Origin: Squalus acanthias
Taxonomy: Eukaryota
Length of the DNA stretch: 64,000 nt
Reading direction: 5' to 3'
NCBI GenBank assembly: GCA_030390025.1
Contig: CM059431.1
Span: 99,822,001 to 99,886,000, forward strand
Shown here piece by piece: positions 40,920 to 52,405 of the stretch. The notes beneath the pieces are model-generated. The model worked only from the letters and a program-made list of their open reading frames with translations, ran no database searches and was not told where the DNA came from. The position numbers and the translations under genes were made by a program. Numbering within the stretch: position 1 is the stretch's first letter; each line of letters starts with the position of its first letter.

Positions 40920-42062
40920 AGCCATGGCTCAGTGGGCAACACTCTCAGCTCGGAGTCAGAAAGTTGTGGGTTCAAGGTCCACTCCAGAGACTTGAGCACA
41001 AAATCCAGGCTGACACTCCACTGAGGGACTGCCGCACTGTCGGAGGGGCGGTACTGAGGGAGCGCGGCACTGTCGGAGGGGCAGTACTGAGCGAGCGCGG
41101 CACTGTCGGAGGGGAAGTACTGAGCGAGCGCGGCACTGTCGGAGGGGCAGTACTGAGCGAGCGCTGCACTGTTGGAGGGGCAGCACTGAGGGAGCGCCGC
41201 ACTGTCGGAGGGGCGGTACTGAGGGAGCGCCGCACTGTCAGAGGGGCGGTACTGAGGGAGCGCCGCACTGTCGGAGGGGCAGTACTGAAGGAGCGCGGCA
41301 CTGTCGGAGGGGCGGTACTGAGGGAGCGCTGCACTGTCGGAGGGGCAGTACTGAGGGAGCGCTGCACTGTCGGAGGGGCAGTACTAAGGGAGCACCGCAC
41401 TGTCGGAGGGGCGGTACTGAGGGAGCGCCACACTGTCAGAGGGGCAGTACTGAGGGAGCGCTGCACTGTCGGAGGGGCAGTACTGAGGGAGCACCGCACT
41501 GTCGGAGGGGCAGTACTGAGGGAGCGCTGCACTATCAGAGGGGCAGTACTGAGGGAGCGCCGCACTGTCGGAGGGGCAGTACTGAGGGAGCGCCGCACTG
41601 TCGGAGGGGCAGTACTGAGGGAGCGCTGCACTGTCGGAGGGGCAGTACTGAGAGAGCGCCGCACTGTCGGAAGGGCAGTACTGAGGGAGCACCGAACTGT
41701 CGGAGGGGCGGTACTGAGGGAGCGCCGCACTGTCAGAGGTGTCATCTTTTGAATGAGACACTAAACTGAGGCCCCCATCTGGCCTGTCAGGTCGACATAA
41801 AAGATCCCACGGCACTATTGGAAGAAGAGCAGGGGAGTTCTCCCCGGTGTCCAATATTTATCCCTCAACTAACATCACTAAAACAGATTATCTGGTCATT
41901 TATCACATTGCTGTTTGTGGGAGCTTGCTGTGCGCAAATTGGCTGCTGCGTTTCTCACATTACAACAGTGACGACACTTCAAAAGCACTTCATTGGCTGT
42001 ACAGCGCTTTGAGACGTGCAGTGGTCATGAAAGGCGCTGGAGAAATGCAAGTCTTTCTTTTT
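40920..42062 (+). mobile_element. Full-length DeuSINE containing 22 units of the 33-bp repeat (~41020-41740)
   Basis: A/B boxes, array, Deu core and tail in order; cactgt-type motif every 33 bp from 41035 to 41728. Confidence 0.93.
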
Positions 42063-42589
42063 CTGTAAGGACAGAGGAGACACGAGAGAGAGTCTCCCTG
42101 CACTGCTCTCACACACCTTGTAACAGATGGTTATGGAGCAGAATTGGCAAACCGGTCACGTCCCTGTGCCAGGAATGGTGTGAAGCATGGCGGTGACGGG
42201 GGCCGAGGGGGGGGAGAGACCCAAGAAAGGAAAGATAATAAAAAAAGAACCTTCCAAAATCTGGAAAATAGAAATTGGTCTGTACAAAATTTTAAATATA
42301 ATCCTGATCTCAATTTTGAAGAGATTTAAATCTAATACTGAAACCTTTTCCTTCAGTCTGCTGTGTTAAATATGGAAACATAAAAAACAATTTTGAAGTA
42401 TAACCAGTTAGTAGTTACTATTTATTCCAGTCAGTAACTCACAGCCGGTGCTAATTTACTGCCTCATTTGCGCTGCATTAATTCTTGTCAGGCCTCTTCA
42501 ACTCTGGAGTTCCTGCACTTTACTGCACCAATACTTCTCTTACTACATCCTCTGAAAATATGGGCCCTGAATACTAGATATCACTGTGA

Positions 42590-44045
42590 ATCTAGGGGAA
42601 AGAGCAGGGGGGAGCGGGACTAATTGGAGAGCTCTTTCAAAGAGCCGGCACAGGCACGCTGGGCAGAATTGCCTCCTTCTGTGCGGTATCGTTCTATGGT
42701 CTCAGAATACATAAGAACATAGGAATTAGGAGCAGGAGTCGGCCATTCGGCCCCTCGAGCCTGCTCCGCCATTCAATGAGATCATGGCTGATCTCTGACC
42801 TCGACTCCACCTTCCCGCCCGATCCCCGTATCCCTCGATTCCCCAAGTTGGTGAATTCAGTTGCATTCTTAGTGCAGATGTTATGTTTTTCTGTAATTCT
42901 TCTGTAATTAATGTTTATTCTCTCCCTGGGATTTGAAGTATGAGGGTGTTATTGAAGTAAGAAAATGGGGTATTAGGCGAGGTGATTCATCCACTGGTTC
43001 CTGACCTCTGCTTCTTTTGAGATTAAATGTTGAGCGTGACTGTTACAGCCCACAAAAACCCCAGCAGCCAAACAGCATATTATTTATCCGCTCGAAGTGT
43101 ATGTTTCTTTTTGTTTTACTGATTTGTAGCTTGACTCTTCAAAGCAGCAACGAGTTGAGGAAGATGAAAACAAAATTACAATCTTTACACTTTCAGTTCA
43201 ATGTAGAGGATTAAATCGTCGATGTGCCAATGCAGAACATCCACCGTAATTAAAGGGCACGGTGCAACTCGGCTAAATGATGCTGCTGACTCAGGAAAGC
43301 AGGCAAGGACTGCTCAAAGATCAAGAGATCAGTTTACATAGAATTTACAAGCTATACACAGGCCATTCGGCCCAACTGGTCGGTGCCGGTGTTTCTGCTC
43401 CACACCAGCCTCCTCCCTCCCCTCTTCATCTCACCTCATCAGCATATCCTTCTATTCCTTTCTCCCTCGTGTGTTTATCTAGATTCCCCTGAAAGGCATC
43501 TCTGCTCTTCGCCTCAATCCCTCCCTGTGGTAGCGAGTTCCACATTCTCACCACTCTCTGGGTGAAGAAGTTTCTCCTGAATTCCCGATTGGATTTATTA
43601 GTGACTATCTTATATTGATGGCCTCAAGTGTTGGTCTCTCCCACAAGTGGAAACATCTTCTCTACGTCTACCCTATCGAACCCCTTCAGAATTTTATAGA
43701 CCTCTATCAGGTCGCCCCTCAGCCTTCTCTTTTCTAGAAAAAAGAGCCCCAGCCCGTTCAATCTCTCCTGATAGGTATAACCTCTCAGTTCTAGTCACAG
43801 AATCCTCATCAGTGATCTGTATCTTAACTCCATCTACCCCCCTAGGTTCTGTAACCCTTAATACCTTTACCCAACAAAAACCTATCAATCTCAGTTTTGA
43901 CATTTTCAATTGACCCCCAGCCTCAACAGCTTTTTGGGGGAGAGAGTTCCAGATTTCCACCACCCTTTGTGTGAAGAAGTGCTTCCTGACATCACCCCTG
44001 AACGGCCTGGCTCTAATTTTAAGGTAATGACCCCCTTGTTCTGGA
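42590..44045. mobile_element. Several CR1 fragments: 42590-42700 (+), 42708-42845 (-), 43335-43795 (-), 43800-44045 (-)
   Basis: Similarity to CR1 tails and the ORF2 C-terminus. Confidence 0.8.
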
Positions 44046-44293
44046 TGTTTCAGCCAAGGAAAAGAGAACTCTTTTAAAACATAATGCTTAATATGCAAGG
44101 TGAGTACACTGCAATTCTCAAAAAGTATAAATGGGGCAATTAAACAGAGAGGTCTGAGAATATGCTGTAACTGATTAAAAGCGAACAATTGGGAACTAGT
44201 GACCACCACATAATTAAGATCAATGTAAAAATAGAAAAGGATAATGGAGAGTCGAAGATAGGGCTCTGGACTGGTAAAAGACCCTTTTCAGAT

Positions 44294-44722
44294 GCGGTGG
44301 CATAGTGGTTAGCACTGGTGCCTCACAGCGCCAGAGACCCGGGTTCGAATCTGACCTCGGGTGACTGTCTGTGTGGAGTTTGCACATTCTCCCCGTGTCT
44401 GCGTGGGTTTCCTCCGGGTGCTCCGGTTTCCTCCCACAGTCCAAAAATGTGTGGGTTAGGTTGATTTGGCTATGATAAATTGACCCTTAGTGTTAGGGGG
44501 GATTAAATATGTGGGGTTATGGGGATAGGATGGGATATGTTAGGGGGAATTAAATACGTGGGGTTACGGGGGTAGGGTGGGATATGTGTACTGTGGGGAT
44601 TAAAGCAGGGACAGGGTACTGGATTTGGATGATCAGCCATGATCGTATTGAATGGCGGAGCAGGCTCGACGGGCCGAATGGCCTACTCCTGCTCCTAGAT
44701 TCTATGTTTCTATGTTTCTATG
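44294..44722 (+). mobile_element. HE1-type V-SINE (elasmobranch) with a CR1-derived tail
   Basis: tRNA head (TGGCATAGTGG, GGTTCGAATC); V-domain tgtgtggagtttgcacattctccccgtgtctgcgtgggtttcctccgggtgctccggtttcctcccaca; tail gatcagccatgatc...ggcctactcctgctcct(tctatgtt)n. Confidence 0.9.
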
Positions 44723-50384: not shown

Positions 50385-50743
50385 GCCCCCACCACCCTGC
50401 ACACCCCACACACCCCACACACACCCACCCACACACCCCACACACACACACACCCCACACACACACACCCCACACACACACCCCACACACACACCCCACA
50501 CACACACACCCCCCACTCACACACCCACCCACACACCCCACACACACACACACCCCCCACACACACACACACCCCACCCCACACACACACACCCCACACA
50601 CACCCTACACACACCCCACACACACACACCTCACACACACACACCCCACACACACACACCTCACACACACCCCCCACACACACCTCACACACACCCCCCC
50701 ACACACACACACACACACACCCCACACACCCCACACACACACT

Positions 50744-50777
<34 letters not shown>

Positions 50778-51172
50778 CACACACACTCTCCCCACACACA
50801 CACACCCCCCACACACAAACTCCCCACACACACACACACCCCACACCCCCCCCCACACACACTCCCCACACACACACACACACCCCACACACACACACTC
50901 CCCCCACACACACACACACACCCCACACACACACACACATCCCACACACACACATCCCACACACACACACACACGCACACCCCACACACACAGACCCCAC
51001 ACACACAGACCCCACACGGACCCCACACGGACCCCACACCCCACACACACCCCACACACACCCCACACACACACACCCCACACACACCCCACACACAGAC
51101 CCCACACCCCCCCACACAGACCCCACACCCCCCCCACACACACACACCCCCCCACACACACACACGCACAAA
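50385..51172. repeat. Degenerate (CA)n / CACACACCC simple repeat
   Basis: Base composition. Confidence 0.95.
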
Positions 51173-51354
51173 CACAGTTTTTAGTCAACAATAAATTGGC
51201 CAGCAGACATTGACAGATCTTGTGTTCGTACCGAATTTAGAAATTATATACCATCAAGCAAGCACAACGAAGCATGGGATCAGCAGTTTCACGAAGATCA
51301 AGATGACATGATGTTATCATCATTTGAAGCTTCAATTCCCACCTGTGTTCATGA

Positions 51355-52405
51355 ACTCCAGAGCCTTGAGCACATAATCCAGGCTGACACTCCTAAATAG
51401 TACTGAGTGCAGTACTGAGGGAGCATCGCACTGTCGGAGGATCAGTACTGAGGGAGCGCCGCACTGTCGGAGAGGCAGTACTGAGGGAGCGCTGCACTGT
51501 CGGAGGGGCAGTACTGATGGAGTGCCGCACTGTCGGAGGGTCAGTACTGAGGGAGCGCCGCACTGTCGGAGGGGCAGTACTGAGGGAGCGCGGCACTGTC
51601 GGAGGGTCAGTACTGAGGGAGTGTCGCACTGTCGGAGGGGCAGTACTGAGGGAGCGCGGCACTGTCGGAGGGGTAGTACTGAGGGAGTGCCGCACTGTCG
51701 GAGGGGCAGTACTGAGGGAGTGCCGCACTGTCGGAGGGGCAGTACTGAGGGAGCGCCGCACTGGCGGAGGGGCGGTACTGAGTGAGTGCTGCACTGTCGG
51801 AGGGGCAGTAATGAGGGAGCGCTGCACTGTCGGAGGGGCAGTACTGAGGGAGTGCTGCACTGTTGGAGGGTCAGTACTGAGGGAGCGCTGCACTGTCAGA
51901 GGGGCGGTACTGAGAGAGCGCCGCACTGTCGGAGGGGCAGTACTGAGGGAGCGCCGCACTGTCGGAGGGGCAGTACTGAGGGAGCCCCGCACTGTCGGAG
52001 GGGCAGTACTGAGGGAGTGCCGCACTGTCGGAGGAGCAGTACTGAGGGCGTGCTGCACTGTCGGAGGGGCAGTACTGAGGGAGCGCCGCACTGTCGGAGA
52101 TGCCGTCTTTTGGATGAGATGTTAAACCGAGGCCTCTCGGGTGGACATAAAAAATCCCACTGCACTATTTTGAAGAAGAGCAGGGGAGTTCTCCCCGGTG
52201 TCCTGGGGCCAATATTTATCCCTCAAACAACATCACTAAAACAGATTATCTGGTCATTATCACATTGCTGTTTGTGGGAGCTTGCTGTGCGCAAATTGGC
52301 TGCCGCGTTTCCTACATTACAACAGTGACCACACTTCAAAAAGTACTTCATTGGCTGTGAAGCATTTCGGGACATCCTGAGATTGTGAAAGGCGCTGTAG
52401 ATATT
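51355..52405 (+). mobile_element. DeuSINE (5'-clipped) containing 21 units of the 33-bp repeat (~51400-52100)
   Basis: cactg motif every 33 bp from 51429 to 52089, then Deu core and tail. Confidence 0.93.

What the first reader, a model, noticed from the sequence alone, without database searches (positions are those of the whole stretch)
40920..52405. DeuSINE as a minisatellite generator: the same internal 33-mer expanded at three loci
Seen: unexpanded DeuSINEs (e.g. 11841-11880) have GTGCAGT and GTGCCGT exactly 33 nt apart, overlapping a hairpin (CAGTGCAGT[A/G]CT-gaggg-AGTGCTGCACTG). That interval is repeated 22x (41020-41740), 21x (51400-52100) and >=155x (1-5140). All three arrays share derived variants (GGAGGGGCAGT junction, GAGCGCCGCAC) that are absent from single-unit copies. 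Inference: microhomology-plus-hairpin slippage seeded the array in a master SINE. An array-bearing subfamily then retrotransposed, which would explain the similar 21/22 counts, and some copies expanded further locally.
Basis: partly seen in the sequence, partly recalled or inferred. Interest (0 to 1): 0.7.

Follow-up and report, generated by a model that had tools for sequence, protein, structure and literature searches.

The report
SINE-embedded 33-bp minisatellite family
A short jumping element in this shark-like genome carries a 33-base stretch that has grown into tandem arrays at thousands of places, and the arrays seem to have grown in place after insertion, not copied at full length.

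Summary
[quoted passage not shown] Single-unit copies carry GTGCAGT and GTGCCGT exactly 33 nt apart. The array-specific variants occur only inside the arrays in this window.

Genome-wide this is a large family: 7,804 array-to-body junctions against 53,992 single-unit ones, and 179,120 exact inter-unit junctions of one derived type.

The reading is only partly right. Seeding by the 7-bp repeat is supported: rare arrays (L082, L079) carry exactly the predicted underived junction. Local growth is shown directly by block duplications in the giant array, by locus-private unit variants, and by paralogs with identical flanks but 15 versus 37 or more units.

A retrotransposing 21/22-unit master is not supported:
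- Unit numbers run from 2 to about 158.
- Unit order is not shared between arrays.
- Array-bearing copies scatter on the SINE tree and are as old as single-unit copies.
- 27 of 28 scorable copies keep a head, although heads are often 5'-truncated.
- Arrays are confined to megabase domains.

How the one dominant unit type reached thousands of resident copies is open: DNA-level transfer, or a short two-unit subfamily. This is a new member of a known kind, SINE-derived satellites.

The parts
1..5140 (-). Giant 33-bp array, window part. It continues 66 bp to the left into L069, for about 158 units in all, and is built from repeated multi-unit blocks.
   Evidence: TRF. Unit parse: 157 units; blocks 33-56, 94-122 and 127-152 repeat, and 24-31 recurs at 65-68, 71-77 and 86-92. 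Left end read.
5141..5204 (-). 5'-truncated SINE head fragment that bounds the giant array.
   Evidence: Read: reverse complement of ...gggttcacagccccactccagagacctgagcacataatccaggctgacactcccagtgcagtg.
40920..41019 (+). tRNA-like head of array-bearing SINE copy A, starting at consensus position 9.
   Evidence: A-box-like TGGCTCAGTGG and B-box-like GGTTCAAGGTCC read by eye; the box consensus is recalled.
41020..41745 (+). Array A: 22 units of 33 bp. Units 3-4 carry a double variant that is almost private to this locus.
   Evidence: the variant unit has 5 exact matches in the genome, 2 of them adjacent here.
41746..42060 (+). Body and 3' tail of SINE copy A, complete to the TCTTTCTTT end.
51355..51408 (+). 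5'-truncated head of array-bearing SINE copy B, starting at consensus position 70.
51409..52106 (+). Array B: 21 units. The unit order is not colinear with array A.
52107..52404 (+). Body and tail of SINE copy B, reaching consensus position 323 of 337.
11739..12185 (+). Reference single-unit SINE copy. GTGCAGT lies at 11841-11847 and GTGCCGT at 11874-11880; the hairpin lies at 11839-11867.
11388..11738 (-). Single-unit SINE copy in minus orientation, cut off at the start of the unit, abutting the head of the next copy.
32970..33341 (+). Single-unit SINE copy (TGCTG type).
45866..46298 (+). Single-unit SINE copy (GTACTG, TGCTG type).
5744..5932 (+). Head and unit part of a single-unit SINE copy (CGCAG type).

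Best explanation
This is a minisatellite family embedded in a SINE.

1. Seeding (inferred; fits the Haber-Louis type of origin). The 33-bp interval between two 7-bp near-repeats (GTGCAGT ... GTGCCGT), at the junction of the SINE head and body, is prone to tandem duplication.

2. Recurrence (shown). Duplication has happened more than once. Rare arrays carry the underived junction and the single-unit haplotype.

3. One dominant lineage (shown). One unit lineage, with a T-to-G change that makes GGAGGGGCAGT and with CGC[C/T]G in place of TGCTG, accounts for almost all units in the genome.

4. Unit number is set in place (shown). DNA-level gain and loss decides the count at each locus: single-unit and multi-unit block duplications, spread of locus-private variants, inversions. 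It is not inherited from a master of fixed length.

5. Arrays were absent or only one to three units long when the SINE copies inserted. This is inferred from the retention of heads.

6. Arrays are concentrated in megabase-scale, tandem-repeat-rich domains at chromosome ends and at some internal sites (shown for C1 and C7).

7. Spread of the dominant unit type (inferred, weakly). I lean slightly to homology-guided DNA transfer, that is ectopic gene conversion or unequal exchange with the SINE head and body as homology arms, among copies already resident in these domains. The close alternative is retrotransposition of a short proto-array subfamily. The confidence given is for the core points, items 1 to 6.
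For: Scale and single lineage:
- Array-to-body junctions: 7,804; single-unit junctions: 53,992 (both at <=3 mismatches, controls 0).
- Exact inter-unit junctions: 179,120 derived, 1,872 T-a and 112 T-g.
- Of 100 listed single-unit rows, 75 are TGCT, 12 TGCC, 11 CGCT and 2 CGCC.

Independent births:
- L082: all 26 junctions underived, TGCTG haplotype, locus-private variants in blocks.
- L079: all junctions T-type, two private unit types alternating.

Growth in place:
- Block repeats in the giant array.
- Private variant blocks in L070, L072, L076, L080, L083 and L084.
- Adjacent units are more alike than non-adjacent ones (2.217 vs 2.546 differences). Within-array differences are 2.514 against 2.645 between arrays; 0 of 500 permutations reach this gap.
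- Position 14 C/T differs between arrays (chi-square 122, 30 df, p 4e-13).
- Array units are less diverged than their flanks at non-CpG sites (2.9% vs 7.3%).
- L069 6310-7001 has 8 identical CpG-intact units beside decayed flanks.
- Four paralogs of a 14.5-kb tandem duplication have flanks with 0 of 400 mismatches (three of the four). One holds 15 units behind a head; three hold 37 or more units behind an inverted array.

Arrays short or absent at insertion:
- Array set: 16 full heads, 11 truncated inside the head, 1 headless, 2 not scorable.
- Single-unit set: 15 full, 15 truncated.
- My arithmetic: a truncation hazard of about 0.5-0.7% per bp would leave only a few percent of heads behind ~500-bp arrays.

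No distinct subfamily:
- Tree changes 21 against 21.5 for shuffled labels.
- Flank divergence 6.8% in both classes.

Domains:
- On C7 (159.8 Mb), 29 of 30 listed junction hits lie at 0.5-4.6 Mb or 97.8-103.4 Mb.
- On C1, 65 of 66 T-a rows lie at 3.3-5.2, 92.0-92.9 or 251.5-265.9 Mb. Perfect single-unit rows are spread over 0.9-76.8 Mb.

Lean to DNA transfer:
- The 33 two-unit copies lie in the same domains.
- The GCGGT junction variant clusters on C24: 14 of the placed hits at <=2 mismatches.
- About half of the SINE copies in the 74 kb around the window bear arrays.
- A second, unrelated TE-embedded 32-bp array is multi-locus in the same domains.
Against: - Sampling. The 30 array loci were chosen by a perfect, CpG-rich 45-nt junction, out of 7,804 matches at up to 3 mismatches. 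The 30 single-unit loci all come from the first 12.7 Mb of C1, out of 53,992 matches. The sets are small and not random.
- Listings show only the first 100 rows, so the domain picture rests on C1, C7 and parts of other contigs. Contig lengths are known only for C7, C13, C15 and C1857.
- The head-retention argument assumes that truncation is roughly uniform per base and arose at insertion. A hazard specific to the tRNA-like head would weaken it.
- CpG decay is similar overall in arrays (34%) and flanks (39%). By that clock many units are nearly as old as the insertions. Only after setting aside the polymorphic site 14 do arrays look about half as old.
- Within-array homogeneity is weak and not significant at non-CpG sites.
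- Two body markers are commoner in array copies (25 of 32 vs 12 of 30, p 0.004; 17 of 32 vs 6 of 30, p 0.009). This fits an array-prone subfamily, though 5 of 6 single-unit copies from the same regions share the first marker.
- The AU test does not reject a single clade (p 0.377).
- No direct case of gene conversion was shown.
- Three of five neighbouring arrays have 21-22 units, which I cannot explain.
Confidence: 0.7

Rival explanations
1. Short proto-array subfamily. A master SINE acquired one duplication (two or three units, with the derived junction) and retrotransposed like any other subfamily. Its copies then expanded where the chromosomal context favours tandem-repeat growth, and collapsed back to one unit elsewhere.
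For: - One derived junction type dominates.
- Heads are retained, as expected if only about 33-66 extra bases were present at insertion.
- Two body markers are enriched in array copies.
- 13 of 100 listed single-unit rows carry CGCT or CGCC and could be collapsed copies.
- Two- and three-unit copies with the derived junction exist. One of them, L029, has a 17-bp target-site duplication and a truncated head.
Against: - Two-unit copies are rare: about 33 of 44 matches. All lie in the same domains as the long arrays.
- Flank age and tree position do not set array copies apart.
- The marker enrichment may be regional: 5 of 6 local single-unit controls carry the first marker.
- About half of the local SINE copies bear arrays, which would need very uneven insertion of one subfamily that uses the same tail.
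Confidence: 0.35
2. A master SINE with a long array (about 21/22 units) retrotransposed, so array length is largely inherited, with further growth at a few loci.
For: - Three of five arrays within 74 kb have 21-22 units.
- The unit has no run of four T's, by my reading of the unit. That Pol III would therefore not terminate inside an array is my inference from recalled knowledge.
- RNA libraries hold many reads with unit-to-unit junctions.
- Overall CpG decay of arrays (34%) is close to that of flanks (39%).
Against: - Unit numbers run from 2 to at least 46 in 30 other loci, and only 1 of 30 has 21-22 units.
- No shared unit order, with local pairs at z -0.87 to 1.10.
- 27 of 28 scorable copies keep a head despite frequent truncation within heads.
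- The two headless arrays examined (L009, L080) show no target-site duplication.
- No clade and no age difference.
- Strong regional confinement.
- A structural marker, the inverted-array junction of L007, is unique in the genome.
- RNA reads show no sharp starts at the head and lie on both strands.
Confidence: 0.08
3. All arrays arose independently at each locus, and the shared variants are convergent, for example because the GGGG junction and CpG-rich units expand better and sweep each array.
For: - Independent births at the same register do occur (L082, L079).
- Mixed arrays hold both junction types (L070, L072, L083, L084).
- The T-to-G change creates a G4 run in a G-rich strand (my reading of the unit; the link to instability is recalled from work on human minisatellites).
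Against: The same transversion, together with the same two T-to-C differences, would have to arise and sweep in thousands of arrays. Underived junctions make up only about 1.1% of exact junctions.
Confidence: 0.05

Closest known systems
SINE-derived satellites (sSats) of squamate reptiles (Vassetzky, Kosushkin and Ryskov 2023, PMC10702118; abstract, Background and Discussion read)
   Same: - Tandem repeats made from part of a tRNA-related SINE.
- Terminal units run on into SINE sequence.
- Many loci, with a few to hundreds of units.
- Preference for chromosome-end regions.
- Independent origins of different variants, with one variant coming to dominate.
- Weak, incomplete homogenisation.
   Different: - The host is a cartilaginous fish. 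Those authors wrote that they did not know whether sSats exist outside squamates.
- The unit is 33 bp.
- Both SINE termini are usually retained, which is a minor variant in squamates.
- There are thousands of loci with at least 179,120 units of one type.
- Internal as well as terminal chromosomal domains are involved.
- Evidence here bears on whether arrays predate insertion.
TE-derived minisatellites of the human genome and the Haber-Louis origin model (Ahmed and Liang 2012, PMC3389668; abstract and sections 3.3-3.4 read)
   Same: - Initiation of a repeat from a segment flanked by short direct repeats. That paper finds most such flanking repeats to be 7 bp.
- Later expansion by local duplication of units.
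- Hotspots within particular TE regions.
- The explicit distinction between arrays propagated by transposition and arrays that start after insertion.
   Different: Most human cases have two units and are private to a locus. Here one unit lineage is shared by thousands of loci and arrays reach about 158 units.
VNTR composite retrotransposons SVA and LAVA (Lupan et al. 2015, PMC4432496; abstract and outline only)
   Same: - A non-autonomous retroelement with an internal array of GC-rich units of similar size (30-50 bp there).
- Remodelling of the array at the DNA level through microhomology.
   Different: In SVA and LAVA the array is carried through retrotransposition and has conserved ordered unit blocks at its ends. 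Here no ordered map is shared, and the evidence argues against long arrays being present at insertion.
SacSINE1 / Deu-SINEs of cartilaginous fish (Luchetti et al. 2017, PMC5499810; passages found by term search)
   Same: A tRNA-related head, a long conserved body and an L2-type tail in shark SINEs, as that paper describes for SacSINE1. The element here has a tRNA-like head, a ~340-bp body and a TCTTTCTTT end.
   Different: That paper does not contain the word 'tandem' (0 occurrences).

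Membership tests
tRNA-derived SINE | Pol III A and B boxes in a tRNA-like 5' head | tested here: inconclusive
   TGGCTCAGTGG and GGTTCAAGTCC-like motifs are read in the heads, but the box consensus is recalled. ARAGORN finds no tRNA in the window. Rfam finds nothing in 40800-52500 at E <= 0.1.
tRNA-derived SINE | High copy number, dispersed, with 5' truncation and target-site duplications | tested here: met
   53,992 plus 7,804 junction matches. Truncated heads in 11 of 27 and 15 of 30 copies. 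A 17-bp duplication flanks L029, with shorter ones at L020, L022 and L027. No duplication of 6 bp or more was found for the two window copies.
DeuSINE superfamily (SacSINE1-like) | Presence of the conserved Deu domain in the body | not testable with these tools
   No Deu or SacSINE1 reference sequence was available. The papers give none in text.
DeuSINE superfamily (SacSINE1-like) | 3' tail shared with a partner L2 LINE | not tested
   The tail ends in TCTTTCTTT. No LINE was compared.
SINE-derived satellite (sSat) | Tandem unit is a segment of a SINE, and terminal units continue into SINE sequence | tested here: met
   The unit equals the interval 11841-11873 of the single-unit copy. Head and body flank the arrays in the window and in 27 of 28 scorable loci.
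SINE-derived satellite (sSat) | Many loci, concentrated in chromosome-end or heterochromatin-like regions | tested here: met
   7,804 loci. C7: 29 of 30 listed hits in two domains. C1: 65 of 66 rows in three domains. Some domains are internal, and only C1 and C7 were examined in full.
VNTR-carrying retrotransposon (SVA-like) | Array transmitted by retrotransposition: ordered unit map shared among copies | tested here: not met
   Across 435 array pairs the mean z is 0.44, and no strong colinearity is seen. Local pairs give z -0.87 to 1.10. Unit numbers run from 2 to about 158.
VNTR-carrying retrotransposon (SVA-like) | 5' truncations fall within the array in proportion to its length | tested here: not met
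   1 headless copy of 28 scorable, against 11 truncated inside the ~100-bp head.
Classical GC-rich hypervariable minisatellite | Unit of 10-100 bp, GC-rich with strand asymmetry, interspersed unit variants | tested here: met
   33-bp unit. GC 0.66 and GC skew -0.31 over 1-4000. Variant maps.
Classical GC-rich hypervariable minisatellite | Length polymorphism between individuals | not tested
   Only short reads were on hand. Recent paralogs differ (15 against 37 or more units, with identical flanks), which shows fast change but not allelic polymorphism.

The most novel reading that the evidence does not exclude
The array behaves as a DNA-level passenger of the SINE family. Once formed, it copies itself into resident single-unit SINE copies by ectopic gene conversion or unequal exchange, using the conserved SINE head and body as ready-made homology arms. 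A dispersed repeat family thus becomes a landing pad that lets one minisatellite colonise thousands of sites within recombination-active chromosomal domains, without any new retrotransposition.
Probability: 0.35. Interest if true: 0.75.

Novelty: new member of a known kind. Interest (0 to 1): 0.5.

Why it matters
How short tandem arrays are born from transposable elements, and how the same satellite comes to sit at many places, is an open question. [quoted passage not shown]

This genome offers a very large natural experiment:
- one 33-bp interval of one SINE, with a visible seeding motif;
- rare independent births that keep the predicted junction;
- one derived lineage with at least 179,120 units at thousands of loci.

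Because each array is framed by datable SINE flanks, the order of events (insertion, array birth, growth, transfer) can be read locus by locus and across species. That would separate retrotransposition from recombination-based spread.

My searches of the held library listed no title that describes this array in cartilaginous fish. Only titles and abstract starts were seen for most hits.

Tried and rejected
- tRNA and RNA-family scans of the window found nothing.
- A base-level autocorrelation of the giant array failed, because small indels shift the register. It was replaced by a unit-level parse.
- The tree test has little power. Labels scatter as at random, yet a single clade is not rejected.
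- Local sharing of rare variants among the five neighbouring arrays was dominated by the giant array's own duplications. Only the CGGT variant looked regionally enriched (14 of 228 local units against 8 of 464, p 0.004). I do not lean on it.
- Headless arrays L009 and L080 gave no target-site duplication, and L016's apparent lack of a head is an assembly gap.
- Public runs. Runs under six organism codes (A-F) hold all 5 sampled words of a 99-nt array stretch.
- Of the laid runs, DNA run X21 gave 17 reads and X22 none, so there was no cross-species test. RNA runs X23 and X24 gave thousands of reads on head and units, none on the unique flank, on both strands and with no sharp starts. That shows array-containing RNA exists but says nothing for or against Pol III transcripts.

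Full report
**What is in the window.** Tandem Repeats Finder reports three period-33 arrays with one unit: 1-5140 (156 copies, minus orientation), 41020-41739 (21.8 copies) and 51409-52099 (20.9 copies). [quoted passage not shown] A BLAST of one copy against the window finds that family about ten more times.

Copy A spans 40920-42060, with its head starting at consensus position 9. Copy B spans 51355-52404, with its head starting at position 70. The first array runs 66 bp beyond the window's left edge and stops at a SINE body fragment (L069). My parse gives 157 units plus the boundary unit. The 10 kb to the left hold two more array-bearing copies, of 14 and 21 units.

They hold.
- GTGCAGT (11841-11847) and GTGCCGT (11874-11880) are 33 nt apart.
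- The hairpin folds at -12.4 kcal/mol, but only 191 of 200 shuffles fold worse.
- All 104 GGAGGGGCAGT and all 62 GAGCGCCGCAC in the window lie in the arrays. Four of the 5 single-unit copies have TGCTG.
- The dominant array unit has lost the hairpin's left arm and folds no better than shuffles. The hairpin can therefore matter only for seeding.

**Scale in the genome.** The window is C7:99,822,001-99,886,000 of a 3.71-Gb assembly.
- A 45-nt pattern spanning the end of one unit, the last unit and the start of the body has 7,804 matches at <=3 mismatches. The reversed control has none.
- The matching single-unit pattern has 53,992 matches.
- The exact 24-nt derived inter-unit junction occurs 179,120 times.
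- The junction expected from a fresh slip occurs 112 times for the G-type head boundary and 1,872 times for the A-type.
- Among the first 100 exact single-unit-type rows I tallied 75 TGCT, 12 TGCC, 11 CGCT and 2 CGCC. A and G at GT[A/G]CTG are in roughly equal numbers. A few of these rows lie inside T-type arrays.
- In 578 inner array units the first CpG is intact in 73% and position 14 is C in about half.

So the arrays do carry a distinct, shared unit lineage.

**Independent births.**
- L082 (C13) is a full SINE with 27 units. All 26 of its junctions are the underived GGAGGTGCAGT|GCTGAGG. Its haplotype is the single-unit TGCTG, and private variants are amplified in blocks.
- L079 (C3) has 10 units, all with T-type junctions, and two private unit types alternate.

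These are what a new duplication between the two 7-bp repeats should look like. They support the seeding idea and show that the interval is intrinsically prone to duplication. This matches the origin model cited for human TE-derived repeats, where flanking direct repeats are mostly 7 bp (PMC3389668, section 3.4).

**Growth in place.**
- The giant array contains a block of roughly 24-29 units three times (units 33-56, 94-122, 127-152). A shorter block occurs four times.
- L070, L072, L076, L080, L083 and L084 each hold unit variants, seen in no other sampled array, repeated in runs or with a period of several units.
- A double-variant unit of array A occurs 5 times in the genome, twice side by side in array A.
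- Adjacent units differ less than non-adjacent ones (2.217 vs 2.546). Units within an array differ slightly less than between arrays (2.514 vs 2.645; 0 of 500 permutations reach this gap). This is not significant at non-CpG sites alone.
- Position 14 differs strongly between arrays (p 4e-13).
- Non-CpG divergence from consensus is 2.9% in units against 7.3% in flanks. CpG decay is 34% against 39%, and 27% and 16% at the two CpGs other than the polymorphic one.
- Four paralogs of a 14.5-kb tandem duplication on C1857 have identical flanks (0 of 400 mismatches among three of them). One has 15 units behind a head; three have 37 or more units behind an inverted array.

**Was the array present at insertion?** In the 30 loci with a perfect junction, 16 have a full head (start <=14), 11 are cut within the head, 1 has no head, and 2 cannot be scored because of a locus edge or an N gap. 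In 30 single-unit loci, 15 are full and 15 are cut.

If these cuts are 5' truncations at insertion, the hazard is about 0.5-0.7% per base (my arithmetic). An array of the median 16 units, about 530 bp, would then leave a head in only a few percent of copies. Observed: 27 of 28. This points to arrays of at most one to three units at insertion. It assumes that the hazard is not peculiar to the head. The two headless arrays examined show no target-site duplication.

**Is there an array-bearing subfamily?**
- On a maximum-likelihood tree of 322 nt of body (63 rows, 32 with arrays), the array state needs 21 changes. Label shuffles give 21.5 +/- 2.1, and 144 of 300 shuffles need as few.
- The AU test does not reject one clade (p 0.377), so the data are weak either way.
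- Flank divergence is 6.8% in both classes (Mann-Whitney p 0.56).
- Two markers are enriched in array copies (25 of 32 vs 12 of 30, p 0.004; 17 of 32 vs 6 of 30, p 0.009). However, 5 of 6 single-unit copies lying near arrays carry the first marker too, so the difference may be regional.
- Unit numbers in the 30 loci are 2, 3, 3, 5, 6, 7, 7, 8, 11, 12, 12, 12, >=12, 15, 16, 16, 18, 18, 18, 19, 19, 22, 26, 26, ~31, 31, 34, 37, ~39, >=46.
- Unit order is not shared. Across 435 pairs the mean z is 0.44, and the neighbouring arrays give z -0.87 to 1.10.
- That three of five neighbours have 21-22 units remains unexplained.

**Where the arrays are.**
- C7 is 159.8 Mb long, so the window is not terminal.
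- Of the 30 C7 rows in the two junction listings, 16 lie at 0.49-4.56 Mb, 13 at 97.8-103.4 Mb and 1 at 37.1 Mb.
- All 66 C1 rows of the T-a junction are listed: 20 at 3.27-5.17 Mb, 8 at 92.0-92.9 Mb, 1 at 131.2 Mb and 37 at 251.5-265.9 Mb.
- Perfect single-unit rows on C1 run from 0.9 to 76.8 Mb and thin out only gradually.
- The roughly 33 true two-unit copies (44 matches, 11 of them the first two units of longer arrays) lie in the same kinds of places.
- A CGGT junction variant is concentrated at C24:46.8-53.6 Mb (14 rows among the complete <=2-mismatch list).
- The window itself is rich in other tandem repeats.
- Earlier notes of this scan report a CR1-derived 49-bp satellite and a 54-bp satellite 2.3 and 3.9 Mb upstream (not checked by me).

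**Reading.** The robust part is this. The 33-bp interval duplicates recurrently. One derived lineage dominates. Unit number is made in place. Arrays were short or absent at insertion. Arrays live in particular domains.

The open step is how the derived unit came to sit in thousands of SINE copies of ordinary age and mixed subfamily. Two models fit.
- A two- or three-unit subfamily retrotransposed and then expanded or collapsed.
- The array was passed between resident copies by gene conversion or unequal exchange, through the flanking SINE homology.

I lean slightly to the second, for four reasons: short arrays are confined to the same domains, variants are shared regionally, the local fraction of array-bearing copies is high, and a second, unrelated 32-bp array embedded in another element behaves alike. 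No conversion event was shown.

**Expression.** Two RNA libraries give thousands of reads at >=88% likeness on the head and more on the units. None falls on the unique upstream flank. Reads lie on both strands and there are no sharp starts. Array-containing RNA exists, but discrete Pol III transcripts are not shown.

**Comparison with what is known.**
- The nearest described kind is the SINE-derived satellites of squamates (PMC10702118). They share the SINE-framed arrays, the many loci, the independent origins with one variant taking over, and the preference for chromosome ends.
- SVA and LAVA share the internal array of GC-rich units and DNA-level remodelling (PMC4432496, abstract). They carry an ordered array through retrotransposition, which is not seen here.
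- The 'DeuSINE' label could not be tested for want of a reference sequence. The description of SacSINE1 (PMC5499810, passages) fits in outline.

**Limits.**
- Samples are small and chosen by pattern.
- Only the first 100 rows of each listing are visible.
- Several tallies were made by hand from listings.
- Divergences are measured against a majority consensus that mixes subfamilies.
- The exact length of the giant array depends on the assembly.

Noticed in passing
window 53246-55933 (flanks 53160-53245 and 55934-56110): A second minisatellite: 32-bp unit, 84 copies, 94% matches. It is embedded in a different repeat, whose left flank is the reverse complement of a SINE-type 3' end (gaaagacttgcatttatatagcgc). 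A two-unit pattern has 5,167 matches at several loci, including C2:209.4-213.6 Mb, C6:21.2 Mb, C7:37.3 Mb and C1:251.9 Mb. These are partly the same domains as the 33-bp arrays.
   Followed up: partly
L085-L088 (C1857:610900-656550): A 14.5-kb tandem segmental duplication in four copies. Three paralogs have an inverted array abutting a direct array of 37 or more units (a palindromic arrangement). The fourth has 15 units behind a normal head. Flanks are identical, and nearly all units are of the rare CGGT type.
   Followed up: partly
L007 (C651:69340-72660), about 1150-1500: An array in inverted orientation joined directly to a SINE body at ...cccctccga|ggtgccgtc. This junction is unique in the genome.
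   Followed up: yes
C24:46.8-53.6 Mb (table rows only): Array-to-body junctions whose last inter-unit junction reads GGGGCGGT cluster on one chromosome arm: 14 rows among the complete list of hits at <=2 mismatches. Many more lie on unplaced contigs.
   Followed up: no
window 11388-12185: Two SINE copies lie head to head. The minus-strand copy is cut exactly at the start of the 33-bp unit and abuts position 1 of the plus-strand copy's head.
   Followed up: no
window 20218-20697, 22935-23384, 26922-27153, 50386-51176: Further tandem repeats: C-rich arrays, a TCCC-based array, a 26-bp unit in 8.9 copies, and a CA/C-rich array directly upstream of SINE copy B. My rough sum of the TRF intervals puts about a sixth of the window in tandem repeats.
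   Followed up: no
window 35508-36007: A run of 500 N, an assembly gap. Another N gap lies directly upstream of the array in L016.
   Followed up: no
window 41020-41118, as laid: In RNA run X24 the array units are covered about five times more on one strand than the other (about 4,700 vs 950), while the head is covered equally on both. Run X23 shows no such bias. This suggests one or a few abundant array-containing transcripts.
   Followed up: no
window plus L069 (C7:99,812,001-99,886,000): Three of the five array-bearing copies within 74 kb have 21 or 22 units, while only 1 of 30 sampled elsewhere does. Their unit orders are unrelated. Unexplained.
   Followed up: partly
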